This document shows positions 3,783 through 32,520 of a DNA stretch of 64,000 nucleotides, piece by piece. Each line of letters starts with the position of its first letter. Within the stretch, counting starts at the first letter, position 1. Source of the DNA: Escherichia phage VpaE1_ev78; the sequence record LR597663; one strand, given 5' to 3'. Both the position numbers and the translations under genes were made by a program. The notes beneath the pieces are model-generated. The model had not been told where the DNA came from. It was given only the letters and a program-made list of their open reading frames with translations, and did no database searches.

Positions 3783-4331
3783 ATGAAGAAATTGATTCTA
3801 GGTTTGTGCTTAATGTTTACAGCACACTTATCTTATGCAGTTGACTGCCCAGAGCTATCAATTAGCCAAAAAGTAAACATGTTAAAAGCTTACCAGTATG
3901 GTGAGAATAACATGGGTAAAGGTTGGGGTATCACTCTAGCTGCTATAGCCTTACAAGAGTCAGAGTTAGGTCTGAAGGTAGAGAATAAAAAGACACATGA
4001 TTATGGTATTTTCCAGAATCACTTGAAGACTGTTGTAAAGCGTAACAAAATTAGTCCTAATGTGGCTAAAAAGAAACTCTTAAAAGACTTTGACTATGCT
4101 GCAAAGGAAACGCACAAAGAACTTGAGTTTTGGACAAAGGTGCATGGTCAGCCAAAGTCAAAGAAGACTTTACAAAAAGTTTTAGCATCATATAATGCTG
4201 GGTATTCGTACAGAATCCCTAAAGCTAAGAAGTATTCTCAAGATGTCTATAACAACATGAAAGTTATTGCTCAATGTGAATTTGCAACAAACATTTCTAA
4301 GGTAAATCATGAAAAAATTAAGAAAGTCTGA
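3783..4331 (+). CDS. Secreted protein with lytic-transglycosylase (SLT)-like motifs
   Basis: 182 aa; N-terminal signal peptide MKKLILGLCLMFTAHLSYA; AIALQESELG ... DYGIFQ resembles SLT catalytic Glu-Ser and GLMQ-type motifs; GGAG RBS. Confidence 0.45.
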   Translation: MKKLILGLCLMFTAHLSYAVDCPELSISQKVNMLKAYQYGENNMGKGWGITLAAIALQESELGLKVENKKTHDYGIFQNHLKTVVKRNKISPNVAKKKLLKDFDYAAKETHKELEFWTKVHGQPKSKKTLQKVLASYNAGYSYRIPKAKKYSQDVYNNMKVIAQCEFATNISKVNHEKIKKV

Positions 4332-5004
4332 TGAAGTACTGTGTCATGCTTATGACTTACACCCTCATGAGTTAGGTCTTAATTCCTGTGTATGGACTCC
4401 AGAACAGTGTAGGGATTTTGAAGACACCGCAAGAGAAGTTGTATGTTCACTCGAAGAGTTCCACACATCAGAGCCAATTGTGAATGTTGTAGATAAAGAG
4501 ACTGGACAAACTATAGGCGTGAGTCGTGATAGCTTAGTCATAGTCAATAAAGACCTTGTAGAAAAAGGGAATCTCATCTTAGCAGATATTGATGGTGTTC
4601 TTACAAATTTTAATCACGAAGATTGCTCAACGGAATTGACTGATGGTTCATTCTCACAGTATACCAATCTTCTTGATTCTGTAAGAGCAAAGCCAACGTA
4701 TGTTTTCAATATCATTGATGCAATTGCTAATCATGCTGCCATTGGACTCTTGACAGCGAGAGGTGAATCTCAGAGAATACCTACTGAGATGTTTTTAAGG
4801 CATTACATAGAGCATGATTACATGCTTTTTATGCGTGGTTTTGGGACTAACTCTATAAGTGCAGAAAGTTTGAAAGTGAGGATGATTCAGTCTTGCATTC
4901 TGCCTTACTTTAATATAGTATGCTTTATAGAAGATACAGAGAAGAATGTGCAGAAGGTGAACAGAATCCTTCCACACATTAAAACCATGTTAGTTAAACA
5001 TTGA
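4309..5004 (+). CDS. HAD-superfamily phosphatase-like protein (possible 5'(3')-deoxyribonucleotidase)
   Basis: 231 aa; HAD motif I ILADIDGVLTN (DxDGV), downstream T/S and D motifs; overlaps previous gene by 23 nt. Confidence 0.4.
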   Translation: MKKLRKSDEVLCHAYDLHPHELGLNSCVWTPEQCRDFEDTAREVVCSLEEFHTSEPIVNVVDKETGQTIGVSRDSLVIVNKDLVEKGNLILADIDGVLTNFNHEDCSTELTDGSFSQYTNLLDSVRAKPTYVFNIIDAIANHAAIGLLTARGESQRIPTEMFLRHYIEHDYMLFMRGFGTNSISAESLKVRMIQSCILPYFNIVCFIEDTEKNVQKVNRILPHIKTMLVKH

Positions 5005-24824: not shown

Positions 24825-26240
24825 ATGAGCGAATTATTTAAACATGCGCACCTTCATGCAGGTCGAACTGAAAATGGTGCTGTAAACCATACTTCATCAA
24901 TGTCTGCTCTTGTGGACTTTTATAAAGCTGCTGGTTCAAGCCGTAGCAATGTAGAAGTCTTACCAGACCTGTTCTACAAAGCTTTGCGTGAGGATGTTGA
25001 TGTTGCAGTTCGTATTTTGCTTCATATGCGAGATGTACGAGAAGGTATGGGTGAGCGTAAAGCCTTCAGAACTGTTTTGCTTCAAGCGATTGAAGACAAA
25101 GTTTTAGAGCCTGTACAGGTTCTTCGCATTATGGATAAGATTGCAGAACTTGGTCGTTTTGATGACTTCAAAATCTTCGTAGGTACTCGTTTCGAGACAG
25201 ATGCCTTCAAACATTTAGAAGCAGCATTACTAGACCCTGCAACAGCAGGTTTGGCAGCCAAGTGGCTACCACGAGTCAAACCACGTCATAAGCAGTTTGT
25301 AAAACGTTTCTGCAAGTTTGCCAACTTGAGTGAGAAAGAGTACCGCACACTGTTGTCTGCACTATCTGATACAGTTGAGCAAAAAATCTCTGCTAATGAG
25401 TTTGGTAAGATTGACTACAGTAAGATTCCTTCTCTTGCTGCTGCACGTTACCAAAAGCTGTTTAACCGTAAAGATGGAGAGCGTTACAAAGCTTACATCG
25501 AGTCCTTATCAAAGGGTGAGGCTAAGATTAATGCTGGTGCTGTTTACCCATACGATGTGATTAAATCTGTCAAGCATGGTAATGCAGATGTTGCTAATGA
25601 GCAGTGGAAAGCACTACCAAACTGGATGGCAGAAGGTGAAAACATCTTATGTATGACTGATGTTTCAAGCTCAATGTCTTGGGTGAATTTTGGCTCCATT
25701 ACTGCTCTTGATATTGGTGTATCACTTGCCTTGTATGTAGCAGAACGCAATACAGGTTGCTTTAAGGATGAGTTGATGGTTTATTCAACAAACCCTCACT
25801 TCATCGAACTGAGTGGTGATTTACGAAACCGTCATCGTCAGGTGATGCGACACGTTGAATATGGCTCAACCAACTTACAAGCAGCTTTTGACCGCATTCT
25901 TGAGATAGGTAAGAGAAACAACTTGACTCAGGAAGATATGCCAAGTAAGCTTATCATCTTCTCCGATATGGAGTTCAATCAGGTTGATGGAGCTAACGGT
26001 CGTACAAACTTTGAAGCAATTCAGAGCAAGTACAAGAAAGCTGGATATGAGATGCCACAACTGGTATTCTGGTACTTAGCAAACCGTAATGGTACTTGCG
26101 AAGTGTCTGTTAAGGATAACGGTGTAGCAATGGTATCTGGTTTCTCTCCAGCCACTTTAAAAGCTCTGCTTGGTGGTGAGAAGTTTGACCCAATCAGCGT
26201 AATGCTCAAAGCAGTAATGATTGACCGCTATATCTGGTAA
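24825..26240 (+). CDS. vWA-domain protein with helical N-terminal domain (possible TROVE/Ro60-like architecture, unverified)
   Basis: 471 aa; C-terminal about 190 aa has MIDAS-like D-x-S-x-S (MTDVSSSMS) and later acidic motif FSDMEFNQ typical of von Willebrand A domains. Confidence 0.5.
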   Translation: MSELFKHAHLHAGRTENGAVNHTSSMSALVDFYKAAGSSRSNVEVLPDLFYKALREDVDVAVRILLHMRDVREGMGERKAFRTVLLQAIEDKVLEPVQVLRIMDKIAELGRFDDFKIFVGTRFETDAFKHLEAALLDPATAGLAAKWLPRVKPRHKQFVKRFCKFANLSEKEYRTLLSALSDTVEQKISANEFGKIDYSKIPSLAAARYQKLFNRKDGERYKAYIESLSKGEAKINAGAVYPYDVIKSVKHGNADVANEQWKALPNWMAEGENILCMTDVSSSMSWVNFGSITALDIGVSLALYVAERNTGCFKDELMVYSTNPHFIELSGDLRNRHRQVMRHVEYGSTNLQAAFDRILEIGKRNNLTQEDMPSKLIIFSDMEFNQVDGANGRTNFEAIQSKYKKAGYEMPQLVFWYLANRNGTCEVSVKDNGVAMVSGFSPATLKALLGGEKFDPISVMLKAVMIDRYIW

Positions 26241-26258
26241 AAAGTTTTAAAAAGGGTA

Positions 26259-26287
26259 TTGACAATGTGTTTAATACCCTTTAATAT
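26259..26287 (+). promoter_or_regulatory. Sigma70-like promoter (TTGACA-17-TAATAT) ahead of tRNA array
   Basis: Consensus hexamers; embedded in an 8 bp inverted repeat agggtatt/aataccct. Confidence 0.55.
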
Positions 26288-26349
26288 GTTCTACATAGAA
26301 ACGAAATGAGAGCTTTTCTAAGATACTGAAAAATATTTTAAAAAAGTTC

Positions 26350-26379
26350 TTGACAATCACTAAAAAATAATGTTAAAGT
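26350..26379 (+). promoter_or_regulatory. Sigma70-like promoter (TTGACA-18-TAAAGT) ahead of first tRNA
   Basis: Consensus -35 and TAAAGT -10 about 25 nt upstream of tRNA at 26406. Confidence 0.55.
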
Positions 26380-26405
26380 GGTTACATAGAGTTTGAAAAG
26401 TTTAT

Positions 26406-26482
26406 CTCTGTTTAGCTCAGCTTGGTAGAGCGTTCCGTTTGGGGCGGTAAGGCCGGAGGTTCAAGTCCTCCAACAGAGACCA
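26406..26482 (+). tRNA. tRNA-Pro (anticodon TGG), CCA encoded
   Basis: 7 bp acceptor ctctgtt/aacagag, D-loop with GG, T-arm ggagg-ttcaagt-cctcc; hand-folded. Confidence 0.55.
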
Positions 26483-26489
26483 AATTAAT

Positions 26490-26567
26490 GTTCCAGTAGA
26501 CAAAATGGTAAAGTCACCACTCTTTCAAAGTGGATATCTGAGGGTTCAAATCCCTTCTGGAACGCCA
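26490..26567 (+). tRNA. tRNA-Glu (TTC)
   Basis: Acceptor gttccag/ctggaac, anticodon stem ccact/agtgg with loop ctTTCaa, T-loop ttcaaat, CCA encoded. Confidence 0.6.
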
Positions 26568-26574
26568 GTTTTGA

Positions 26575-26648
26575 CAGAAGACCAATTGCAGCAAACTTAA
26601 TCTTATTCATCTGAAGGTAAATCGGACAAAGAAGAGATTTGGTCTGGT
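26575..26648 (+). repeat. Inverted-repeat-bracketed element, copy 1 (cagaagacca ... tggtctgg)
   Basis: Conserved 5' end cagaagacc(a/g)..t.cagcaa and 3' end ggtctgg shared by four elements; ends are mutually complementary. Confidence 0.55.
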
Positions 26649-26658
26649 CATTAAGAAT

Positions 26659-26735
26659 TGCGGGTATAGAGAAAGGGCGTCTCACATGTCTCATTAGCAT
26701 GGTATCGGCAGGTTCGACTCCTGCACCCGCCTCCA
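26659..26735 (+). tRNA. tRNA with CAT anticodon (Met/Ile2/initiator type); acceptor register uncertain
   Basis: D-stem gaga/tctc, anticodon stem catgt/gcatg with loop ctCATta, T-arm gcagg-ttcgact-cctgc; 1-72 appears mismatched. Confidence 0.4.
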
Positions 26736-26741
26736 AATTTA

Positions 26742-26806
26742 CAGAAGACCGTTTACAGCAATATTTATTAAATTTTTAGCGGAAAAAATTGAAAGATACG
26801 GTCTGG
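26742..26806 (+). repeat. Inverted-repeat-bracketed element, copy 2
   Basis: 5' acagaagaccgtttacagcaa identical to copy 4; 3' cggtctggtaa. Confidence 0.55.
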
Positions 26807-26819
26807 TAACACTAAACAT

Positions 26820-26896
26820 GGTTAGGAAGCACATAAGGTATGTGCGGTCGCCTGTTAAGCGAATGGCACAGGGTTCGAATCCCTGACTAACCGCCA
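26820..26896 (+). tRNA. tRNA-Asn (GTT)
   Basis: D-stem gcac/gtgc, anticodon loop ctGTTaa, T-arm caggg-ttcgaat-ccctg, CCA encoded. Confidence 0.55.
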
Positions 26897-26905
26897 AATT
26901 TAAAT

Positions 26906-26993
26906 GTGTCGTTATCCCGTAGATGGTAGCGGTGGGGACTGTAAATCCCTTGTCATTGAGACTCGGTAGGTTCGACTCCTACACGGCACACCA
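26906..26993 (+). tRNA. tRNA-Tyr (GTA), long variable arm
   Basis: Acceptor gtgtcgt/acggcac, anticodon loop ctGTAaa, 88 nt with extra arm, T-arm gtagg-ttcgact-cctac, CCA encoded. Confidence 0.6.
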
Positions 26994-26998
26994 ATAAA

Positions 26999-27076
26999 GG
27001 TTATGTAGTTTAATTTGGTTAAAATACTCCCCTGTCACGGGAGATGATGAGGGTTCAAATCCCTTCGTAACCGCCA
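26999..27076 (+). tRNA. tRNA-Asp (GTC)
   Basis: Acceptor ggttatg/cgtaacc, anticodon stem ctccc/gggag with loop ctGTCac, T-loop ttcaaat, CCA encoded. Confidence 0.65.
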
Positions 27077-27137
27077 ATTTTGAGAGGGCTATTTAGCCCC
27101 TCCCTTAAAGAGTTCTTACGAGTATTCTTTAAAGGAG

Positions 27138-27211
27138 CAGAAGACCAAATACAGCAAGTTATTTAAAATTTCAAGCCAATTTAATTTTGAAAAATTTAAA
27201 ACTTGGTCTGG
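27138..27211 (+). repeat. Inverted-repeat-bracketed element, copy 3
   Basis: cagaagaccaaatacagcaag ... cttggtctgg. Confidence 0.5.
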
Positions 27212-27224
27212 CTCAACAAATTTA

Positions 27225-27355
27225 CAGAAGACCGTTTACAGCAAAACTTAACAATCTATTTCTCCGGTAAAGAAAAGGCGAAGGTTCGATTCCTTCACTC
27301 GGCAGATGTCGAGTTGGTGTAATGGTAGTACTTAAGATGATAAACAACGGTCTGG
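27225..27355 (+). ncRNA. Inverted-repeat-bracketed element, copy 4, carrying tRNA-like fragments (candidate structured ncRNA or decayed tRNA)
   Basis: Same conserved ends as copy 2; interior has a T-arm gaagg-ttcgatt-ccttc (27280-27296), a 7 bp hairpin (27297-27314) and a D-arm-like tggtgtaatggtagtac, but no anticodon arm. Confidence 0.4.
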
Positions 27356-27504
27356 TAATTATCTTTGTAGATAAGTTATTAAGCTTACCTGTGAGTATGC
27401 GACCACAAAGGGTGAAAGGGTAAATTCTAGATTTAAACCCAAAAAGGCACATCGCTACAGACCTTAAGCAAGTCTGGGTAGCTTATCTACAAAGATAATT
27501 TAAT

Positions 27505-27580
27505 GGAAGTGTAGCAGAATGGTGATGCGGCAGACTTTTAATCTGACAGGCGATGGGTTCGAATCCCTCCACTTCTACCA
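27505..27580 (+). tRNA. tRNA-Lys (TTT)
   Basis: Acceptor ggaagtg/cacttct, anticodon loop ctTTTaa, T-loop ttcgaat, CCA encoded; T-stem appears short. Confidence 0.5.
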
Positions 27581-27584
27581 ATAT

Positions 27585-27661
27585 GGTTCAGTCGCAGATA
27601 AGGTAATGCAAGGGTCTCATAAGCCCTATGAATGTGGGTTCGATTCCCATCTGAACCTCCA
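27585..27661 (+). tRNA. tRNA-Met (CAT)
   Basis: Acceptor ggttcag/ctgaacc, anticodon stem agggt/gccct with loop ctCATaa, T-arm gtggg-ttcgatt-cccat, CCA encoded. Confidence 0.6.
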
Positions 27662-27662
27662 A

Positions 27663-27738
27663 GCTGGTATAGTTAAGAAGGTTATAACACTCCCCTGATA
27701 AGGGAACATCGGTGGTTCGATTCCACCTACCAGTACCA
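27663..27738 (+). tRNA. tRNA-Ile (GAT)
   Basis: Acceptor gctggta/taccagt, D-stem gtta/taac, anticodon loop ctGATaa, T-arm ggtgg-ttcgatt-ccacc, CCA encoded. Confidence 0.65.
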
Positions 27739-27753
27739 ATTTCAATAAAGTTG

Positions 27754-27782
27754 TTGACATTGAGATGTGACTACTTTATAGT
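27754..27782 (+). promoter_or_regulatory. Sigma70-like promoter (TTGACA-17-TATAGT) inside tRNA region
   Basis: Consensus -35, 17 nt spacer, TATAGT -10. Confidence 0.55.
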
Positions 27783-27986
27783 AACCTTAGTTTTCGTTGC
27801 GTAGCGTCTATTTTGCAAATTTAAAATAAATGCAAACGACAATGTTTTTCTGGCAGTAGCTTGATAGGCTAAACACCAGTGAGGTCTTCCAATCCCTCAT
27901 CAAAGAATTTGGCGTACTCGCCCACGGTATGATTAATAAGGTGGGCATCTTTAAGGGCTTTCTAAGAGAGTCTTTAAAGATAATTA

Positions 27987-28068
27987 CGGGGCGTATCTCA
28001 GCGGTCTTCTAAACCGCCGTTAACCGAGTAAGTGGAGTATGCGGGTTCGAGTCCTGCCGCCTCGACCA
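27987..28068 (+). tRNA. Atypical tRNA-like gene (no clear D-arm; anticodon-type loop ctTCTaa); identity unresolved
   Basis: Acceptor cggggcg/cgcctcg, T-arm gcggg-ttcgagt-cctgc and CCA present; only one perfect 5 bp stem-loop in the body, 23 nt between it and the T-arm. Confidence 0.3.
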
Positions 28069-28082
28069 ATTTTGGAGAAATC

Positions 28083-28430
28083 ATGAAAACTTGTATTAGG
28101 TGCAAACTTAGCAAGGATGAAAATGATTTCTACATGAAAGATGGTAGGAGAACTCATTCATACTGTAAAAAGTGTGTTAATGAGCAAACCATAGAAAGAC
28201 AAAGAGCACTTAAACTCTCAGCTATTGAGTACAAAGGTGGGGTTTGTCACGATTGTGGTAAAAAGTATCATCCAGCAGTGTATGACTTCCATCATTTGAA
28301 TCCTTCAGAGAAAGATTTTAACATTGGTCATAGGAAAAGCCTTAAGTTCTCTCAAGAACTAAAAGATGAACTTGACAAATGTGTTTTGCTATGTTCAAAT
28401 TGCCATAGGGTAAGACATGCAAAGTATTAG
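28083..28430 (+). CDS. HNH endonuclease with N-terminal zinc finger
   Basis: Start at ATG (MKTCIRCK) with GGAG RBS; CxxC...CxxC then DFHHLNP...LLCSNCHRVRH (HNH motif); track start 28032 lies in the upstream tRNA. Confidence 0.6.
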   Translation: MKTCIRCKLSKDENDFYMKDGRRTHSYCKKCVNEQTIERQRALKLSAIEYKGGVCHDCGKKYHPAVYDFHHLNPSEKDFNIGHRKSLKFSQELKDELDKCVLLCSNCHRVRHAKY

Positions 28431-28573
28431 TTAGCAGATTACTTAGACGACCTAAGCGGGTCTTCCTGTAGGGAGGTGGTCTGTATCTCATGTTTTCCAG
28501 AACATGTAAATAATCTGAGAAGAAGCTTGACAGTGTTGAGATAACAGGGTAAGCTTCGAATTATAGTTTTAAT

Positions 28574-28644
28574 AGGGGTGAGCTATGGCAGCAATAGAGT
28601 CTCCAAAATTCTTGATTAGAGTTCGAATCTCTACACCCCTGCCA
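28574..28644 (+). tRNA. tRNA-Trp (CCA)
   Basis: Acceptor aggggtg/cacccct, anticodon loop ctCCAaa, T-arm tagag-ttcgaat-ctcta, CCA encoded. Confidence 0.5.
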
Positions 28645-28658
28645 GAACAGGTGCTTGT

Positions 28659-29063
28659 ATGAAACTTTGTAGAAAATGTTCTCAAGAAAAGCCTTTAAGC
28701 TGCTTTCATAAAAGAGGTAATGGCTATCAGTCTGCTTGCAAAGATTGTAAAGCTAAGTACTCAGCAAAGAGATACAAAGAAGACCCTACTTATAAAGCAA
28801 AAAGAAAAGTTAGGGCAAAATATGACAAAAAGAGGAACAGAGAGTTCCTTAGTAGATATAAAAAGTTTTGCAAATGCAGAATATGTGGCGAATCTGAGCC
28901 AGTAGCTTTGGATTTTCATCACTTAGACCCTAAAGAGAAAGATTTTGCTCCAAGCAATCTTAAAACTTACTCTAGGGGCACTATTAAGCGTGAAGTCCGT
29001 AAGTGTGTTGTGCTTTGTTCAAACTGTCATAGGAAAGTTCATGAAGGACTGTTAAGTATTTAA
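28659..29063 (+). CDS. HNH endonuclease with N-terminal zinc finger (paralog of 28083-28430)
   Basis: 134 aa; CRKCSQEK...CKDC zinc finger and DFHHLDPKEKDF...VLCSNCHRKVH HNH motif. Confidence 0.6.
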   Translation: MKLCRKCSQEKPLSCFHKRGNGYQSACKDCKAKYSAKRYKEDPTYKAKRKVRAKYDKKRNREFLSRYKKFCKCRICGESEPVALDFHHLDPKEKDFAPSNLKTYSRGTIKREVRKCVVLCSNCHRKVHEGLLSI

Positions 29064-29076
29064 CAGTCTTATTAGG

Positions 29077-29164
29077 GGTAGGTAGCGGCTAATGGTAGCC
29101 AAACTGTCTTGAAAACAGTTGCCACTGTAGAGATACGGTGAGGGTTCGACTCCTTTACTTACCG
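29077..29164 (+). tRNA. tRNA-Ser (TGA), long variable arm
   Basis: Acceptor ggtaggt/acttacc, anticodon stem actgt/acagt with loop ctTGAaa, 88 nt with extra arm. Confidence 0.6.
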
Positions 29165-29323
29165 CCTAATAAGATTTAAAGCCAAGCTTCATTCGGATGT
29201 TGCTTTGGTATCCCGCGTGTATTGTTGTACACACTGATAAAGCACCTAGTAGGTGTCACGGAGAAGAGATAATATCAAGCTCTCCAAAGGTTCTAGTCAC
29301 CGGATTAAACAAGACTATGCAAA

Positions 29324-29350
29324 GACCTTTTTAGGTCTTTTTAGAGGGCT
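29324..29350 (+). terminator. Terminator-like hairpin
   Basis: aaagacc-ttttta-ggtcttt followed by TTAG. Confidence 0.4.
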
Positions 29351-29421
29351 TCTAAGGTTATTACAGCTTGTTGTGGAACCTTGTTGCTTAGGTTCTTAGA
29401 AGTTCTCTAAAAAGATTTAAT

Positions 29422-29499
29422 GGGAGATTGACGGTAATTGGTAAACCTATCTCGCTTAGAACGAGATGTTTGAGGGTTCGAATCCCTTGTCTCCTACCA
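29422..29499 (+). tRNA. tRNA with anticodon TAG (Leu-type) but short variable loop
   Basis: Acceptor gggagat/gtctcct, perfect anticodon stem tctcg/cgaga with loop ctTAGaa, T-arm gaggg-ttcgaat-ccctt, CCA encoded; only 5 nt variable region. Confidence 0.45.
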
Positions 29500-29506
29500 A
29501 ATTAAT

Positions 29507-29582
29507 GCAGGTGTAGCAAAATGGTTATGCGGCTGACTCTTAATCAGTAAGACGATGGGTTCAATTCCCTCCACCTGTACCA
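29507..29582 (+). tRNA. tRNA-Lys (CTT)
   Basis: Acceptor gcaggtg/cacctgt, anticodon loop ctCTTaa, T region gatgggttcaattccctcc like the Lys(TTT) gene, CCA encoded. Confidence 0.5.
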
Positions 29583-29587
29583 AAAAT

Positions 29588-29663
29588 GGGGTCATAGTTT
29601 ATATGGTTAAAATTCGAGTTTTGCAAACTTGGGAACTGAGTTCAATTCTCAGTGACTCCACCA
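29588..29663 (+). tRNA. tRNA-Ala (TGC)
   Basis: Acceptor ggggtca/tgactcc, anticodon stem cgagt/acttg with loop ttTGCaa, T-arm ctgag-ttcaatt-ctcag, CCA encoded. Confidence 0.6.
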
Positions 29664-29669
29664 ATTAGT

Positions 29670-29744
29670 GCATCCATAGTTTAAACGGGAAAATTACAGT
29701 CTTCCAAACTGAGGTTGAGGGTTCGATTCCCTCTGGATGCTCCA
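29670..29744 (+). tRNA. tRNA-Gly (TCC)
   Basis: Acceptor gcatcca/tggatgc, anticodon loop ctTCCaa, T-arm gaggg-ttcgatt-ccctc, CCA encoded. Confidence 0.6.
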
Positions 29745-29751
29745 AATTAAT

Positions 29752-29827
29752 GCTCCTATCGTATAATTGGCTATTACGGTTGCCTTGTAAGTAACTTATC
29801 AGGGTTCGAATCCTTGTGGGAGCACCA
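29752..29827 (+). tRNA. tRNA-Thr (TGT)
   Basis: Acceptor gctccta/tgggagc, anticodon stem gttgc/gtaac with loop ctTGTaa, T-loop ttcgaat, CCA encoded. Confidence 0.6.
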
Positions 29828-29924
29828 ATTTAGAGGTCAAGTGAAAGACCGCTTTGAGTCAACTGAAGACCGTAACAAATTCCACGGAGTTGAGTTAGCG
29901 GCACAACTCCAGACCTCTTCTCAC

Positions 29925-29999
29925 ACTCGCTTAGTTTATATGGTAAAACACCACCCTTACAAGATGAAGAAAAAGGTTCAAGTCCTTTAGTGAGTACCA
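29925..29999 (+). tRNA. tRNA, anticodon uncertain (possibly TAC, Val)
   Basis: Acceptor actcgct/agtgagt, T-arm aaagg-ttcaagt-ccttt, CCA encoded; anticodon stem pairs poorly. Confidence 0.4.
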
Positions 30000-30000
30000 T

Positions 30001-30078
30001 GTTCCAGTATCCCAATTGGCAGAGGATGCAAGCTCAAACCTTGTACTAGTGATGGTTCGAATCCATCTTGGAACACCA
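30001..30078 (+). tRNA. tRNA with anticodon CAA (Leu-type) but short variable loop
   Basis: Acceptor gttccag/ttggaac, anticodon stem gcaag/cttgt with loop ctCAAac, T-arm gatgg-ttcgaat-ccatc, CCA encoded. Confidence 0.45.
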
Positions 30079-30083
30079 ATTTT

Positions 30084-30159
30084 GCAGGATTAGTTCAAAT
30101 GGATAGAGCAACAGTCTACGAAGCTGTTAATAGGGGTTCAAATCCCTTATCCTGCGCCA
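30084..30159 (+). tRNA. tRNA-Arg (ACG)
   Basis: Acceptor gcaggat/atcctgc, anticodon stem acagt/gctgt with loop ctACGaa, T-loop ttcaaat, CCA encoded. Confidence 0.6.
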
Positions 30160-30178
30160 ATTTAAAGAGGCTATTTAG

Positions 30179-30736
30179 ATGAGATATTTGAAGTATGCTT
30201 CATGGATTTTCTTAGCTTTGTTAGAACCATTTGCAGCAATCTTAGCAGTTATCTTAGCACCTTTTGTAGTTCCATTCTACAGTGAGAAGAAAGGACACTT
30301 ACCTTTCGGGTTCAGATGGATGGAGACATATGACAACCCAATTGATGGTGATGAAGGTCACGTTAAAAGATGGGCTAATATTAGATGGATTGGTAAACTA
30401 GGTGTCTACATGCAAAGAGTCGGATGGCTCTGGAGAAACAAAGCTTATAACTTCTCTTACCATGTGTTAGGAAGAGATGTAAAAGATGTTACTAAGTGGA
30501 AAGGTAATATCAACGTAAGTTCTAACCCTGAAGATAATCAGACAGGTTATCTCCTAATGTGGAACAGTAATGCTTGGGGATTATTCGCTTTTACCCCATC
30601 AATTAAAATCTTTGGTAAACAGTTTTACTGGAGAATTTATATTGGGTGGAAGCTAAAAAGTGTTGTCCCAGAAGAAAGAGCATTCTCAAGGGAAAGAGTT
30701 ATGTTGGCATTCTTTATTCATCCACTAAGAAAGTAA
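30179..30736 (+). CDS. Hypothetical membrane protein embedded in tRNA array
   Basis: 185 aa; AAGAGG RBS; hydrophobic N-terminus WIFLALLEPFAAILAVILAPFVVPF; Trp-rich. Confidence 0.5.
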   Translation: MRYLKYASWIFLALLEPFAAILAVILAPFVVPFYSEKKGHLPFGFRWMETYDNPIDGDEGHVKRWANIRWIGKLGVYMQRVGWLWRNKAYNFSYHVLGRDVKDVTKWKGNINVSSNPEDNQTGYLLMWNSNAWGLFAFTPSIKIFGKQFYWRIYIGWKLKSVVPEERAFSRERVMLAFFIHPLRK

Positions 30737-30744
30737 AGATTTAA

Positions 30745-30820
30745 AGGGGATTAGTTTACAAGGTTAAAACCTCGGTCTTTGAAATCGAAGAAGTTGGTTC
30801 AATTCCAACATCCCCCGCCA
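30745..30820 (+). tRNA. tRNA-Gln (TTG)
   Basis: Acceptor aggggat/atccccc with 1-72 mismatch, anticodon loop ctTTGaa, T-arm gttgg-ttcaatt-ccaac, CCA encoded. Confidence 0.5.
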
Positions 30821-30822
30821 AT

Positions 30823-30901
30823 GCTCCATTACTCCAATTGGCAGAGAGGCCAGACTTAAAATCTGTGTTATGTATCGGTTCGAATCCGATATGGAGTACC
30901 A
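30823..30901 (+). tRNA. tRNA with anticodon TAA (Leu-type), atypical fold
   Basis: Acceptor gctccat/atggagt, 4 bp anticodon stem with loop ctTAAaa, T-arm atcgg-ttcgaat-ccgat, CCA encoded; 8 nt variable region. Confidence 0.4.
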
Positions 30902-30905
30902 AATT

Positions 30906-30981
30906 TAGCGGTATAGCATAACTGGCAATGCAGCAGCCTCTGAAGCTGTCCTATTAAGGTTCAAATCCTTATGCCGCTGCC
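30906..30981 (+). tRNA. tRNA-Gln (CTG)
   Basis: Acceptor agcggta/tgccgct, anticodon stem gcagc/gctgt with loop ctCTGaa, T-loop ttcaaat, CCA encoded. Confidence 0.5.
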
Positions 30982-31012
30982 ACTTCTAAGGATTCTTACG
31001 AGAGTCCTTAAA

Positions 31013-31088
31013 TGTGGCCTTATCATAAATGGTAATGACCCATGCTGTGAACATGGTCTATACGGGTTCAAATCCCGTAGGTCACCCC
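31013..31088 (+). tRNA. tRNA-His (GTG)
   Basis: Acceptor gtggcct/aggtcac, D-stem tcat/atga, perfect anticodon stem ccatg/catgg with loop ctGTGaa, discriminator C, CCA encoded. Confidence 0.65.
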
Positions 31089-31092
31089 AATT

Positions 31093-31168
31093 TATAGTCC
31101 AAGTAGCTTATATGGTTAAAGCGCGTGTCTGAAAAACATGAGAAGAGGGTTCAAATCCCACTGGACTA
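31093..31168 (+). tRNA. tRNA-Phe (GAA)
   Basis: Perfect 7 bp acceptor tagtcca/tggacta, anticodon stem cgtgt/acatg with loop ctGAAaa, T-loop ttcaaat. Confidence 0.6.
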
Positions 31169-31187
31169 CCAATTTCAAAGGTGCTTA

Positions 31188-31922
31188 ATGAAAGAGATGA
31201 CAGAACAAGGTAAGGAGATTTTTAATCTCTTAAAAACCGGTAAAGGGTTCTCTAACCCACTTATTACTGGTGCAGCAGTTCTCGGTGGAACCGTAGCTGC
31301 TTCTACATCACTTGTAAGCTCTATTAGTTCTGTAACAGACCCTACAATGAAGGAGAAACTTGTTGCTGCTGGACTTACAACAGTCCTTCTAAACAGCTTT
31401 ACAACAAGCCTTACAAGCACTACAGCAACTACTAAAACTCTGACAGACTACGGTCAAAAGTCTATTGATGAGTTTTCATCACGTATGCAGGTAGCAAAGG
31501 GGTATTCCAATGTTATGGGTGCAGCAGGAGAACAAGTTGGTTGTACACCATTCAGTGGTATCATGGGTGTTGCTACAGAGTATGGTCAAAAAGCTATTGA
31601 CATGATGAACAGTACACTAGATAGTGTTAATGGTGTGTTAAGTGACTTGCAAGATGCTATTGATAAGGGTCTTGATACTGTTTCTGATTTAGCTAATCAG
31701 GCTGTTAGTAAGATTAATGAAGGTATTTCAAAGATTACAGCTTATGCAGATGAAGTTGTGCAGATGATTGAAGAAGAAGCTGCCCTTATTGCAGAGTACC
31801 TTAAAACGAATATCAATGGGTTCTTAGCAGGTATCTTACCAGACTGGTTTGATGATGCCTGTAAAACTGGTGTGATTGACACTATTGCAACACCAGAAAT
31901 GAAGAGCGCATTACAGAAATAA
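31188..31922 (+). CDS. Hypothetical Ser/Thr-rich protein
   Basis: Start at internal ATG (MKEMTEQ) with AAAGGTG RBS, because track start 31125 lies inside tRNA-Phe. Confidence 0.45.
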   Translation: MKEMTEQGKEIFNLLKTGKGFSNPLITGAAVLGGTVAASTSLVSSISSVTDPTMKEKLVAAGLTTVLLNSFTTSLTSTTATTKTLTDYGQKSIDEFSSRMQVAKGYSNVMGAAGEQVGCTPFSGIMGVATEYGQKAIDMMNSTLDSVNGVLSDLQDAIDKGLDTVSDLANQAVSKINEGISKITAYADEVVQMIEEEAALIAEYLKTNINGFLAGILPDWFDDACKTGVIDTIATPEMKSALQK

Positions 31923-31924
31923 AT

Positions 31925-32017
31925 GGAAGATTAACCCTAAAAGGTAAGGGAGCAGTTTGCTAAACTGCCAGTAGCTGAGAAATCGGTGTACCAGTTCAAG
32001 TCTGGTATCTTCCTCCA
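31925..32017 (+). tRNA. tRNA-Ser (GCT), long variable arm
   Basis: Acceptor ggaagat/atcttcc, anticodon stem gcagt/actgc with loop ttGCTaa, 93 nt with extra arm, CCA encoded. Confidence 0.65.
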
Positions 32018-32021
32018 ATTT

Positions 32022-32097
32022 GAATCCGTGACAGAAATGGCTATGTGCCTGTCTGCAAAACAGGTTTATAAGGGTTCGAGTCCCTTCGGATTCTCCA
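32022..32097 (+). tRNA. tRNA-Cys (GCA)
   Basis: Acceptor gaatccg/cggattc, anticodon stem cctgt/acagg with loop ctGCAaa, T-arm aaggg-ttcgagt-ccctt, CCA encoded. Confidence 0.65.
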
Positions 32098-32262
32098 AGT
32101 TATTTTACTCTCTCTCAATTAAAATAATAATAATGCCCTGCTATAAGTATTCTTCCTTTCGCTACCGAAGAGTATTTTTAGACAGGGCTTTTTTACAGAG
32201 TTATACTTTATAAGAAGGCTTATACAGTATGTCTCTGACGTACATTGTGGTTTCTCCTTGAC

Positions 32263-32292
32263 GGTCTCTGTGCCGTCTTTTTTAAGGAGAAA
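32263..32292 (+). terminator. Rho-independent terminator closing the tRNA unit
   Basis: gacggtctc-tgt-gccgtc followed by TTTTTTAA, just upstream of the structural operon RBS. Confidence 0.55.
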
Positions 32293-32319
32293 CATGGTTA
32301 ATTATTTGGAGAAAACATA

Positions 32320-32520
32320 ATGAGTGAGACCGTTTATAAAGAACTTTATGAAGCTAATAAGAAGCTAGAATTTATGCAGAATACTATCATGGCAATTGCA
32401 GACAGATTGTCTGTAGCAACAGGTATTGATATTAAAGAAGCATCTATGGATGCACTTCTTGATGCTGTTGATGCAAAGTTCGAAGTTAAGAAAGAAGAGA
32501 CTGCTACAGACTCTGAATAA
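32320..32520 (+). CDS. Small protein upstream of large terminase
   Basis: 66 aa ORF with GGAGA RBS; too small to call a small terminase with confidence. Confidence 0.4.
   Translation: MSETVYKELYEANKKLEFMQNTIMAIADRLSVATGIDIKEASMDALLDAVDAKFEVKKEETATDSE

What the first reader, a model, noticed from the sequence alone, without database searches (positions are those of the whole stretch)
27987..29063. Two paralogous zinc-finger HNH endonuclease genes, each directly behind a tRNA; the first tRNA is atypical
The genes at 28083-28430 and 28659-29063 share a CxxC...CxxC finger and a DFHHL(N/D)P...LCSNCHR.(R/V)H HNH core. Each starts within about 15 nt of a tRNA 3' end. The tRNA-like gene at 27987-28068 has acceptor, T-arm and CCA but no clear D-arm and a 23 nt spacer, and may be a cleavage or processing target rather than a functional tRNA.
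Basis: partly seen in the sequence, partly recalled or inferred. Interest (0 to 1): 0.45.

Follow-up and report, generated by a model that had tools for sequence, protein, structure and literature searches.

The report
Rearranged phage arginine tRNA beside homing nucleases
The two small genes are ordinary selfish HNH homing-endonuclease insertions in a Felix O1-like phage's tRNA cluster, but the "odd tRNA" next to the first one belongs to a widespread, unannotated class of phage arginine tRNAs whose D-arm is wired in a different order from every textbook tRNA.

Summary
The window is a Felixounavirus (Felix O1/wV8-like) tRNA cluster. HNH1 (28083-28430) and HNH2 (28659-29063) belong to one phage HNH family (phrog_2255). 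Each starts 14 nt after a tRNA 3' end.

Both are presence/absence polymorphisms. HNH1 is a clean 356-bp insertion found in 27 phage records. HNH2 travels with its own tRNA-Trp allele as a 497-bp cassette found in 22 records. No database phage carries both. They are typical free-standing homing endonuclease genes and are already annotated as HNH in relatives.

The atypical tRNA (27987-28068) is neither debris nor merely a nuclease target. It belongs to a conserved phage RNA family of 59 distinct variants across many phage groups, almost absent from cellular genomes. Acceptor, anticodon and T stems covary fully. 58 of 59 anticodons are arginine (UCU, CCU, ACG, UCG). A 3-bp D-stem-like helix covaries, but its two strands flank the anticodon arm, and a D-loop-like UAAYUGGA motif follows it.

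It is the only UCU tRNA gene here, and AGA is the phage's commonest Arg codon. Canonical tRNA-Arg(UCU) replaces it at the same slot in other relatives. It is most likely a functional, topologically rearranged tRNA-Arg. Charging and decoding are untested.

The parts
27754..27782 (+). Sigma-70-like promoter (TTGACA-17-TATAGT) about 200 nt upstream of the non-canonical tRNA gene. It is conserved in relatives.
   Evidence: 11 of 12 matches. The sequence is identical in wV8, TP15 and SP-107. Function is not tested.
27987..28068 (+). Non-canonical tRNA-Arg(UCU), 82 nt. Layout: acceptor 27987-27993 / 28058-28064; U8 A9 at 27994-27995; UCUC at 27996-27999; A at 28000; anticodon arm 28001-28017 (anticodon TCT at 28008-28010); linker 28018-28025; GAG at 28026-28028; D-loop-like UAAGUGGA at 28029-28036; GUAU at 28037-28040; T-arm 28041-28057; discriminator A at 28065; CCA at 28066-28068.
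   Evidence: Rfam tRNA 31.7 bits. The family model R1 scores it 103.4 bits, against at most 33 bits for the other tRNAs of the window. Covariation.
27997..27999 (+). CUC, the 5' strand of the D-stem-like helix. It pairs with GAG at 28026-28028, so the helix encloses the anticodon arm.
   Evidence: Family-wide covariation of these three pairs (CUC/GAG, CCC/GGG, CGG/CCG, CGA/UCG, CAC/GUG). 169 of 177 cells are paired. In the divergent set 46 of 54 are paired, against a shuffle mean of 27.1 (0 of 5000 shuffles reach the observed value).
28026..28036 (+). GAG (3' strand of the D-stem-like helix) followed by UAAGUGGA, a motif resembling the canonical D-loop A14-A15-Y16-U17-G18-G19-A20.
   Evidence: The motif resembles the D-loop AAUUGGAUA of the canonical tRNA-Arg(UCU) allele of typing phage 15. 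Assigning positions 14-20 is inference.
28071..28426 (+). 356-bp insertion carrying HNH1. Its boundaries are ambiguous by 2 nt within a TT. The empty site in relatives reads CCAAT(T)T^TAGTTAGCAG.
   Evidence: Alignments with wV8, SP-107 and TP15 (empty sites) and with Sf16 (filled site).
28083..28430 (+). HNH1, 115 aa: an N-terminal CxxC...CxxC zinc ribbon plus a Cys4 HNH core (C55, C58, H70, H71, N106, C104, C107, H108, H112). The Shine-Dalgarno GGAG lies at 28074-28077.
28568..29064 (+). 497-bp cassette of tRNA-Trp allele A plus HNH2. It replaces the resident Trp-like element ('type B') found in most relatives.
   Evidence: Alignment with Alf5 and Felix O1. tRNA-Trp allele A and HNH2 are each found in 22 full-length records, and the listed records are the same phages. 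Type B is found in 231 records.
28574..28644 (+). tRNA-Trp(CCA) allele A, 71 nt, with a reduced D-arm.
   Evidence: ARAGORN. Rfam tRNA 33.2 bits with three non-standard D-stem pairs. Annotated tRNA-OTHER/pseudo in wV8.
28659..29063 (+). HNH2, 134 aa, with the same architecture as HNH1. It ends 13 nt before tRNA-Ser(UGA), which spans 29077-29166.
   Evidence: phrog_2255 E 3.3e-45. 99% nt identity to wV8 gp50, annotated as HNH endonuclease. Homologous to the K18PH07C1 HNH and to Felix O1 ORF47 and ORF44.

Best explanation
Two things sit side by side here.

(1) HNH1 and HNH2 are free-standing homing-endonuclease genes of one phage HNH (His-Me finger) family that colonise the spacers of the Felixounavirus tRNA cluster. 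HNH1 is a 356-bp gene-only insertion placed 2-4 nt after the CCA of whichever tRNA-Arg(UCU) allele occupies that slot. HNH2 moves as a 497-bp cassette together with its own tRNA-Trp allele, which replaces the resident Trp-like gene. The inferred mechanism applies during mixed infection. The enzyme cuts or nicks the allele that lacks it, at or near the tRNA gene or spacer. Recombinational repair then copies the nuclease gene, and for HNH2 the linked tRNA, into the cut genome. Starting 14 nt after a tRNA 3' end probably couples expression to the tRNA precursor transcript and its processing.

(2) The atypical tRNA is an independent, conserved gene. It is a topologically rearranged tRNA-Arg. Its gene order is: acceptor 5' strand, U8 A9, one D-stem strand (UCUC), A, anticodon arm, linker, the other D-stem strand (GAG), a D-loop-like UAAYUGGA, 4 nt, T-arm, acceptor 3' strand, CCA. 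The D-stem therefore stacks on the anticodon stem as one extended hairpin. The G18G19A20-like motif is delivered to the elbow from the variable-region side. The RNA most likely still folds into an L shape, is charged by host ArgRS (C35 and an A20-like adenine are kept) and reads AGA, the phage's commonest and the host's rarest arginine codon.

Shown here: sequence family membership, the insertion polymorphisms, covariation of all helices, anticodon restriction to Arg, and replacement by canonical tRNA-Arg(UCU).

Inferred only: nuclease activity and target, 3D fold, aminoacylation, decoding.
For: HNH genes:
- Both match phrog_2255 over full length.
- The Cys4 + HH + N + H motif is invariant in 52 homologues.
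- The AF2 model has pLDDT 95.9. Its best structural matches are Hpy99I, Cap5, Cas9 HNH domains, Gme HNH and McrA.
- Precise empty sites exist in 95-98% identical genomes.
- HNH1 is in 27 phage records and HNH2 in 22, with no overlap between the lists. The best coverage of the window region by any record is 83%.
- HNH1 occupies the same site behind both tRNA-Arg alleles.
- Felix O1 has further family members in the Met/Ile and Gly/Thr spacers, which are empty in this window.
- In K18PH07C1 an HNH2-like gene plus a canonical tRNA-Arg(UCU) interrupts the T-stem of the non-canonical gene, which is intact in KB57.
- Precedent: T4 SegB recognises the T-psi-C motif of tRNA genes and drives inheritance of the tRNA region (PMC2330249).

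tRNA:
- 41 main-family variants show 99.2% of cells paired and 16 pairs with double-sided changes; 0 of 500 shuffles reach the observed values. RNAalifold independently finds the acceptor, anticodon and T helices.
- The family model separates members (78-106 bits) from canonical tRNAs (39 bits or less).
- 18 more divergent members were found.
- D-stem-like helix: 169 of 177 cells paired, several fully compensated triplets, slid controls at most 48%, 0 of 5000 shuffles.
- Anticodons: UCU 48, ACG 5, CCU 3, UCG 2, GAU 1.
- AGA is used 17.5 times per 1000 codons and is the commonest Arg codon. No other UCU tRNA gene is in the window.
- Only 2 of 74 held loci have a separate canonical tRNA-Arg(UCU).
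- A canonical tRNA-Arg(UCU) occupies the same slot in TP15, Sf16 and roughly 100 other records.
- Only two MAG contigs among 185,579 cellular species genomes carry the motif.
Against: - No experiment of any kind supports this.
- No cleavage site or immunity polymorphism is visible around the HNH1 site. The flanks are identical in filled and empty alleles, so the target is only guessed.
- The MFE of the tRNA is not better than shuffles (z = 0.04).
- In the main family the D-stem-like triplets are invariant (CUC/GAG). A competing 3-bp hairpin (YCG/YGG) is fully paired there, with one compensatory change.
- One family member has an Ile-type GAU anticodon.
- The pattern scans fixed the conserved single-stranded motifs, so family diversity is sampled with bias.
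- The literature check covers only the held library.
Confidence: 0.7

Rival explanations
1. The rearranged RNA is a real, conserved structured RNA but not a decoder. It would be a tRNA mimic used as a decoy or shield against tRNA-targeting host defences or toxins (anticodon nucleases, colicin-D-like enzymes), or as a regulator or processing signal.
For: - The anticodon loop CUUCUAA is nearly invariant while the stems drift.
- The core is wired differently from anything ArgRS, EF-Tu or the ribosome is known to accept.
- Phage tRNAs are known to counter tRNA-cleaving immunity (abstract of PMC12409363).
- The element is essentially phage-specific.
Against: - Anticodons change within the arginine box (UCU, CCU, ACG, UCG). 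That is expected for decoders of different codons, not for a decoy of one target.
- Most members keep a 7-bp acceptor stem, discriminator and CCA.
- It is the only UCU tRNA gene in an AGA-rich genome.
- It is exchanged one-for-one with canonical tRNA-Arg(UCU) at the same slot, and within the K18PH07C1 cassette.
Confidence: 0.22
2. The tRNA-like gene is a decaying pseudogene, a scar of rearrangement caused by nearby nuclease activity.
For: - ARAGORN misses it.
- Some annotators label it tRNA-OTHER or pseudo.
- The Rfam score is marginal.
- It lies next to a homing endonuclease gene in this window.
Against: - 59 distinct variants occur in unrelated phage groups with compensatory changes in every helix.
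- The single-stranded motifs are invariant.
- It is present without any HNH of this family nearby in most lineages.
- It is identical in about 94 Felixounavirus records that lack HNH1.
Confidence: 0.03
3. The HNH genes are not selfish homing elements but domesticated phage genes, for example for host DNA degradation, recombination, packaging or tRNA-cluster maintenance. Their variable presence would then reflect ordinary accessory-gene turnover.
For: - No target site or cleavage has been shown.
- Small HNH proteins have other roles in some phages.
- The flanks show no obvious co-conversion tract.
Against: - The insertions are gene-sized and precise, at identical positions in otherwise 95-98% identical genomes.
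- Several family members occupy different tRNA spacers in different strains.
- One member interrupts a tRNA gene while carrying a replacement tRNA.
- Each gene is carried by only about 10% of relatives.
Confidence: 0.1

Closest known systems
Felix O1 ORF45 (NP_944866.1) and wV8 gp50 (YP_002922832.1), annotated HNH endonucleases; the 'six HNH homing endonuclease copies' of Felix O1 (PMC3185647)
   Same: They are the same genes. HNH1 is 95.7% identical in protein to Felix O1 ORF45. HNH2 is about 99% identical in DNA to wV8 gp50. They lie in the same tRNA-cluster locations.
   Different: This window carries both. Every database genome carries one or neither. The Felix O1 paper lists 22 tRNAs and does not list the rearranged tRNA-Arg or the Trp-like element.
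Phage T4 SegB (GIY-YIG) and phage T5 F-TflI/II/IV, free-standing homing endonucleases inside tRNA gene clusters (PMC2330249)
   Same: These are free-standing nuclease genes between tRNA genes. SegB recognises the T-psi-C stem-loop motif of tRNA genes and carries neighbouring tRNA genes with it. That resembles the tRNA-Trp + HNH2 cassette and the K18PH07C1 HNH + tRNA-Arg cassette inserted in a T-stem.
   Different: SegB has a different catalytic fold from the HNH proteins here. No activity, target or cross data exist for the proteins here.
Small Cys4 HNH nucleases with solved structures: Gme HNH nicking endonuclease (4H9D), the McrA HNH domain (6GHC), Hpy99I (3FC3), Cas9 and Cap5 HNH domains
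   Different: Sequence similarity is very low: no PDB hit for the family profile, and Pfam HNH is below threshold. The N-terminal zinc ribbon plus long helix has no named counterpart here.
D-arm-lacking mitochondrial tRNAs (mammalian mt-tRNA-Ser(AGY), nematode mt-tRNAs; reviewed in PMC7609411)
   Same: No D-arm sits between the acceptor and anticodon stems; a short connector takes its place.
   Different: The mitochondrial tRNAs have no D-stem at all and a short variable region. Here a covarying D-stem-like helix and a D-loop-like GG motif are retained but relocated around and after the anticodon arm. The setting is bacterial translation. A 2024 paper states that all known bacterial tRNAs are canonical cloverleaves (PMC11551756).
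Canonical phage tRNA-Arg(UCU), e.g. the allele of E. coli O157 typing phage 15 or of T4
   Same: Same anticodon loop (CUUCUAA), same position in the cluster, a similar T-arm, and a similar D-loop sequence AAUUGGA.
   Different: The canonical order is D-stem 5' strand, D-loop, D-stem 3' strand, anticodon arm, 5-nt variable loop. The window's gene has one D-stem strand, the anticodon arm, a linker, the other D-stem strand, then the D-loop-like motif.
Circularly permuted and split tRNA genes (red alga Cyanidioschyzon, Nanoarchaeum); comparison from my own knowledge
   Same: The order of tRNA segments in the gene is non-standard.
   Different: In those cases processing restores a canonical mature tRNA. 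Here restoring the canonical order would need two cuts and two ligations, and the covarying helix fits the RNA as encoded. The mature RNA is therefore probably itself rearranged. This is not tested.

Membership tests
HNH / His-Me finger nucleases | Beta-beta-alpha-metal fold | tested here: met
HNH / His-Me finger nucleases | Catalytic His, plus Asn and a distal His, plus (in the Cys4 subclass) two CxxC zinc ligand pairs | tested here: met
   C55, C58, H70, H71, C104, C107, H108 and H112 are invariant, and N106 nearly invariant, in 52 homologues. The same residues are invariant in six tRNA-cluster HNH proteins.
HNH / His-Me finger nucleases | Pfam HNH (PF01844) at or above the gathering score | tested here: not met
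   17.8 and 15.6 bits against a cut-off of 21.4. Most homologues carry no precomputed Pfam domain. PHROG family phrog_2255 'HNH endonuclease' matches at E 1e-39 and 3e-45.
HNH / His-Me finger nucleases | Metal-dependent DNA nicking or cleavage | not testable with these tools
   Needs purified protein and substrates.
Free-standing homing endonuclease genes | Presence/absence polymorphism at the same site among close relatives, with intact flanks | tested here: met
   HNH1 is a 356-bp insert whose empty site is present in wV8, SP-107 and TP15. The HNH2 cassette is replaced by the type B element in Alf5 and Felix O1. There are 27 and 22 carriers among about 260 related records.
Free-standing homing endonuclease genes | Site-specific cleavage of the allele lacking the gene, and biased inheritance in mixed infection | not testable with these tools
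The only indirect hint is the K18PH07C1 insertion inside a tRNA T-stem.
tRNA (Rfam RF00005) | Score at or above the Rfam gathering threshold | tested here: met
   31.7 bits against 29. The pass is marginal, with the D-arm positions deleted.
tRNA (Rfam RF00005) | 7-bp acceptor stem with discriminator and CCA; 5-bp anticodon stem with a 7-nt loop carrying U33 and purine 37; 5-bp T-stem with a GTTCRA loop | tested here: met
   Read directly from the sequence. All three helices covary: 98-99.5% of cells paired and 15 pairs with double-sided changes.
tRNA (Rfam RF00005) | D-arm hairpin between position 9 and the anticodon stem | tested here: not met
   Only UCUC-A lies there. The partner strand GAG and the GG-containing loop motif lie 3' of the anticodon arm.
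tRNA (Rfam RF00005) | Aminoacylation and ribosomal decoding | not testable with these tools
   Indirect support only: Arg-only anticodons in 58 of 59 members, AGA-rich codon usage, and reciprocal replacement by canonical tRNA-Arg(UCU).
D-arm-lacking (mitochondrial-type) tRNAs | Complete absence of a D-stem, with a short connector and a short variable loop | tested here: not met
   A 3-bp helix equivalent to a D-stem covaries. The region before the T-arm is 23 nt.

The most novel reading that the evidence does not exclude
Phages of enterobacteria and many environmental phages encode a natural elongator tRNA-Arg whose core is topologically permuted. The D-stem strands flank the anticodon arm, and the D-loop enters from the variable-region side. 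The RNA would nevertheless be charged by host ArgRS and used by bacterial ribosomes. That would make it the first non-cloverleaf tRNA working in bacterial translation. It may be maintained because the altered core escapes tRNA-targeting host immunity, or a phage's own attack on host tRNAs. The HNH + canonical-tRNA cassettes would then be selfish elements that specifically home into such tRNA genes while supplying a replacement.
Probability: 0.45. Interest if true: 0.9.

Novelty: new variant of a known kind. Interest (0 to 1): 0.72.

Why it matters
The HNH genes themselves are routine. They do document how homing endonucleases shuffle tRNA alleles within phage tRNA clusters, including cassettes that carry a replacement tRNA.

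The tRNA is the valuable part.
- If it is charged and decodes AGA, it breaks the rule that all tRNAs used in bacterial translation are canonical cloverleaves.
- It shows that the L-shape can be built with a different strand order.
- It offers a natural scaffold for orthogonal tRNA engineering.
- It is missed by standard annotation tools in hundreds of deposited phage genomes, so phage tRNA repertoires and codon-usage analyses are systematically incomplete.
- The roughly even split between canonical and rearranged alleles at one locus in near-identical phages makes it directly testable whether the rearranged form gives an advantage, for example against tRNA-targeting defence systems.

Tried and rejected
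- **Y RNA / Ro link.** The upstream ORF 24825-26240 is called 'RNA-binding protein' in RefSeq. Pfam gives only DUF2828, DUF7788 and a weak vWA hit. Rfam finds no Y RNA in 26000-32500. I dropped this lead.
- **tRNA-like gene as part of an HNH mobile unit.** phmmer with HNH1, HNH2 and the K18 HNH against ORFs within 1.5 kb of every held copy found such genes only in Ounavirinae-like loci and K18PH07C1. Rejected.
- **A helix UAU/GUA** (columns 9-11 with 52-54). It is invariant apart from one U-to-C change, so uninformative. Not adopted.
- **The variable hairpin YCG/YGG predicted by RNAalifold.** It is fully paired in the main family but only 22 of 54 cells are paired in divergent members. I kept it only as a main-family alternative that overlaps the D-stem-like helix by one nucleotide.
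- **Profile searches of the HNH family against PDB sequences.** No hits. Fold comparison was needed instead.
- **Weak Rfam hits in the spacers** (permuted tmRNA 29.2 bits, tmRNA 16 bits, MIR473 32.7 bits). All are far below gathering scores and I treated them as chance.
- **Literature searches** for a D-arm-less or rearranged phage tRNA, including searches for the conserved sequence itself. Nothing was found.
- **The pattern TAATTGGAN{8,13}GTTCGA.** It returned many chance matches. Only the 16 matches that model R1 scored at E <= 1e-8 in the 78 loci searched were used.
Full report
**Identity of the window.** Region 27400-29500 matches 269 phage records at 85-99% identity. Almost all are Felixounavirus and related Ounavirinae (Felix O1, wV8, Alf5, the O157 typing phages). 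ARAGORN finds 26 tRNA genes between 26406 and 32097. The finding lies inside this tRNA cluster.

**Checking the observation.** The ORFs at 28083-28430 (115 aa) and 28659-29063 (134 aa) exist as described.
- Both begin with CxxC...CxxC. Both end with a CxxC...DFHHL(N/D)P...CSNCHR..H core, and the cores are 48% identical (E 6e-15).
- Each starts 14 nt after a tRNA 3' end.
- The gene at 27987-28068 has a 7-bp acceptor stem, a T-arm, a discriminator and CCA. It has 4 nt where Rfam expects a 15-nt D-arm, and 23 nt before the T-arm.
- It scores 31.7 bits on Rfam tRNA (gathering score 29) and is missed by ARAGORN.

**The proteins are HNH nucleases by family and fold.**
- Pfam HNH hits are below threshold (17.8 and 15.6 bits against 21.4). 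NCBIfam gives nothing relevant.
- Both proteins match phrog_2255 'HNH endonuclease' end to end (E 1e-39 and 3e-45).
- Among 255 database homologues, few carry a Pfam label.
- In an alignment of 52 homologues, C4, C7, C28, C55, C58, H70, H71, C104, C107, H108 and H112 are invariant, and C31 and N106 nearly so.
- Sequence searches against PDB give only McrA at E 0.002, and nothing for family profiles.

The call 'HNH' is therefore sound, but it rests on motif, PHROG family and fold, not on Pfam.

**Both genes are insertion polymorphisms.**
- *HNH1.* Against wV8, SP-107 and typing phage 15, the window has a clean 356-bp extra segment between CCAATTT and TTAGTTAGCAG. It contains the Shine-Dalgarno site and HNH1, whose stop codon overlaps the right flank. 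HNH1 DNA is found in 27 records, including Felix O1 ORF45 and Alf5.
- *HNH2.* HNH2 DNA is found in 22 full-length records, including wV8 gp50. The two lists do not overlap, and no record covers more than 83% of the region. The window's combination is therefore new, though that is trivial.
- *The HNH2 cassette.* HNH2 is never alone. tRNA-Trp allele A (28574-28644) is found in the same number of records, and the listed ones are the same phages. In Alf5 and Felix O1 the whole 497-bp block 28568-29064 is replaced by a different Trp-like element of about 85 nt, which is present in 231 records.
- *Other family members.* Felix O1 carries two more members of this HNH family in the Met/Ile and Gly/Thr spacers, which are empty here.
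- *Same site, both Arg alleles.* In the Mooglevirus Sf16, an 85%-identical HNH1 sits at the same site but behind a canonical tRNA-Arg(UCU).
- *Not close paralogues.* HNH1 is closer to Vibrio and Pseudomonas phage proteins (55-56%) than to HNH2.

This is the standard picture of free-standing homing endonuclease genes. The Felix O1 genome paper already noted six HNH copies (PMC3185647). A well-studied parallel is T4 SegB, which recognises the T-psi-C motif of tRNA genes and carries the T4 tRNA region into related phages (PMC2330249).

**The atypical tRNA is a conserved gene in its own right.** Searching the 111 nt around it gave an unexpected result. Besides 119 Felixounavirus-type records, the element itself is 83-90% identical in phages with no other DNA similarity:
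- Justusliebigvirus and Vequintavirinae of about 146 kb;
- Mydovirus;
- Klebsiella phages of about 110 kb;
- Asteriusvirus jumbo phages of 350-380 kb;
- an Erwinia Kolesnikvirus.

It is almost always unannotated in these records.

Two pattern scans of IMG/VR that fixed only the single-stranded motifs added dozens more copies. In 41 distinct sequences:
- 99.2% of helix cells are standard pairs;
- 16 pairs show changes on both sides;
- no shuffle or slid control comes close;
- RNAalifold independently predicts the acceptor, anticodon and T helices.

A covariance model built from these sequences scores family members at 78-106 bits and ordinary tRNAs at 39 bits or less. Only two MAG contigs among 185,579 cellular species genomes carry the motif. 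The element is therefore essentially viral.

**Architecture.** A looser scan filtered with the model gave 18 divergent relatives. These resolve what replaces the D-arm.
- The three bases after U8-A9-N10 pair with the three bases immediately 5' of a conserved UAAYUGGA motif that lies downstream of the anticodon arm.
- The observed pairings are CUC/GAG (44 sequences), CCC/GGG, CGG/CCG, CGA/UCG and CAC/GUG, plus variants with two pairs and a C·A.
- Overall 169 of 177 cells are paired. In the divergent set 46 of 54 are paired, against a shuffle mean of 27.1 ± 2.8 (0 of 5000 shuffles). Slid registers reach at most 48%.

The gene order is therefore: acceptor 5' strand, U8 A9, one D-stem strand, A, anticodon arm, linker, the other D-stem strand, A-A-Y-U-G-G-A, a few nt, T-arm.

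UAAYUGGA resembles the D-loop AAUUGGAUA of the canonical tRNA-Arg(UCU) allele. My inference is as follows:
- the D-stem and anticodon stem form one extended stacked hairpin;
- the G18G19A20-like motif reaches the T-loop from the variable-region side;
- the canonical tertiary contacts, and the A20 and C35 identity elements of ArgRS (established knowledge of E. coli tRNA-Arg identity), could therefore be kept.

In the main family a short hairpin YCG/YGG can also form. It overlaps the D-stem-like helix by one base and has one compensatory change, but it is not conserved in the divergent members. Which of the two forms in vivo is open.

**Evidence that it works as tRNA-Arg.**
- Across 59 distinct sequences the anticodons are UCU 48, ACG 5, CCU 3, UCG 2 and GAU 1. 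All but one are arginine.
- In the window's long ORFs, AGA is the commonest arginine codon at 17.5 per 1000. No other gene in the cluster has a UCU anticodon.
- Among 74 held loci with an intact copy, only two also have a separate canonical tRNA-Arg(UCU).
- In typing phage 15, Sf16 and roughly 100 other related records, a canonical tRNA-Arg(UCU) occupies exactly this slot.
- In Klebsiella phage K18PH07C1, the rearranged gene (intact in its relative KB57) is split in its T-stem by a cassette of about 490 nt. That cassette consists of an HNH2-like gene followed by a canonical tRNA-Arg(UCU).

These reciprocal replacements argue that the two forms are functionally interchangeable. Charging and decoding remain untested. 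A decoy or anti-defence role is the main rival.

**Comparison with known things.**
- The HNH genes are already annotated in relatives and are ordinary.
- The tRNA is not a member of the mitochondrial D-arm-lacking class, because a D-stem equivalent is present.
- It is not like permuted or split tRNA genes, which mature into canonical tRNAs (my own knowledge).
- A review of natural non-canonical tRNAs mentions no phage or viral example (PMC7609411).
- A 2024 paper states that all known bacterial tRNAs are canonical cloverleaves (PMC11551756).
- Seven literature searches, including searches for the conserved sequence, found no description. The library is incomplete, so prior description cannot be excluded.

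**Verdict.**
- The nuclease part is known biology.
- The tRNA part is a new structural variant of tRNA that is widespread in phages and overlooked by annotation. It is supported here by strong comparative evidence but by no experiment.

Noticed in passing
L005 (Alf5) about 2650-2752; the same slot as window 28568-29064: The element that the HNH2 cassette replaces is itself an odd Trp-like tRNA. It has acceptor AUGGGAC/GUCCCAU + G + CCA, anticodon loop CUCCAAA (CCA), and about 26 nt between the acceptor and anticodon stems. ARAGORN and the Rfam tRNA model do not detect it (the only hit is tRNA-Sec at 23 bits). It is present and unannotated in 231 phage records. Its anticodon stem shows compensatory changes between Alf5 (AACGG/CCGTT), Michonne/ESh21 (GTAAG/CTTAC) and Yersinia phage P778 (GTAGG/CCTAC).
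   Followed up: partly
L013 (Klebsiella phage K18PH07C1) 698-1270, compared with L011 (KB57) 698-780: A cassette of about 490 nt, made of an HNH2-like ORF (749/755-1180) plus a canonical tRNA-Arg(UCU) (1157-1231), is inserted in the T-stem of the rearranged tRNA-Arg gene and replaces 5 nt. It looks like a homing element that destroys a tRNA gene while bringing a substitute.
   Followed up: partly
window 28574-28644: The tRNA-Trp(CCA) linked to HNH2 is only 71 nt and has a defective D-stem (Rfam 33.2 bits, with three non-standard pairs). It is annotated as a pseudo-tRNA in wV8 but as tRNA-Trp in the typing phages.
   Followed up: partly
L076 12998-13080 and 13347-13429; L063 2688-2766 and 4028-4110: Some environmental phage contigs carry two rearranged tRNA-Arg genes with different anticodons (CCU + UCU; ACG + UCU). 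One divergent member (L155 190-272) has a GAU (Ile-type) anticodon.
   Followed up: partly
window 27739-27986, 28431-28573, 29167-29421: These non-coding spacers of 140-250 nt between tRNA genes are conserved at near identity in relatives. They give weak sub-threshold Rfam hits (permuted tmRNA 29.2 bits at 27680-27864, tmRNA 16 bits at 27796-27985, MIR473 32.7 bits at 29327-29426), which are probably chance. A strong promoter-like site lies at 27754-27782. Whether the spacers encode small RNAs is unknown.
   Followed up: no
window 28523-28532: The window reads AAGAAGCTTGACAG where wV8, TP15, Alf5 and Felix O1 read AAGGGGCTTTACAG. This creates a perfect TTGACA -35 hexamer (28527-28532) upstream of tRNA-Trp and HNH2.
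   Followed up: no
window 24825-26240: A 471-aa ORF lies directly upstream of the tRNA cluster. It has DUF2828 plus DUF7788 and a weak vWA hit, and is named 'RNA-binding protein' in RefSeq for Felix O1, wV8 and Alf5. No Y RNA or other partner RNA was found by Rfam nearby.
   Followed up: partly
L007 (Klebsiella phage phi1_146058) 798-1307; L006 (SE_PL) 809-1327: In two unrelated phages a CDS starts 8-16 nt after the rearranged tRNA-Arg. One is annotated HNH endonuclease. phmmer at E 1e-5 did not recognise either as a member of the HNH1/HNH2 family. Different nuclease families may use the same landing site.
   Followed up: no
L003 (Felix O1) 1780-2265 and 4063-4476: Felix O1 has further members of the same HNH family in the tRNA-Met/tRNA-Ile and tRNA-Gly/tRNA-Thr spacers. 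In the window these tRNA pairs are directly adjacent (27585-27738 and 29670-29827).
   Followed up: partly
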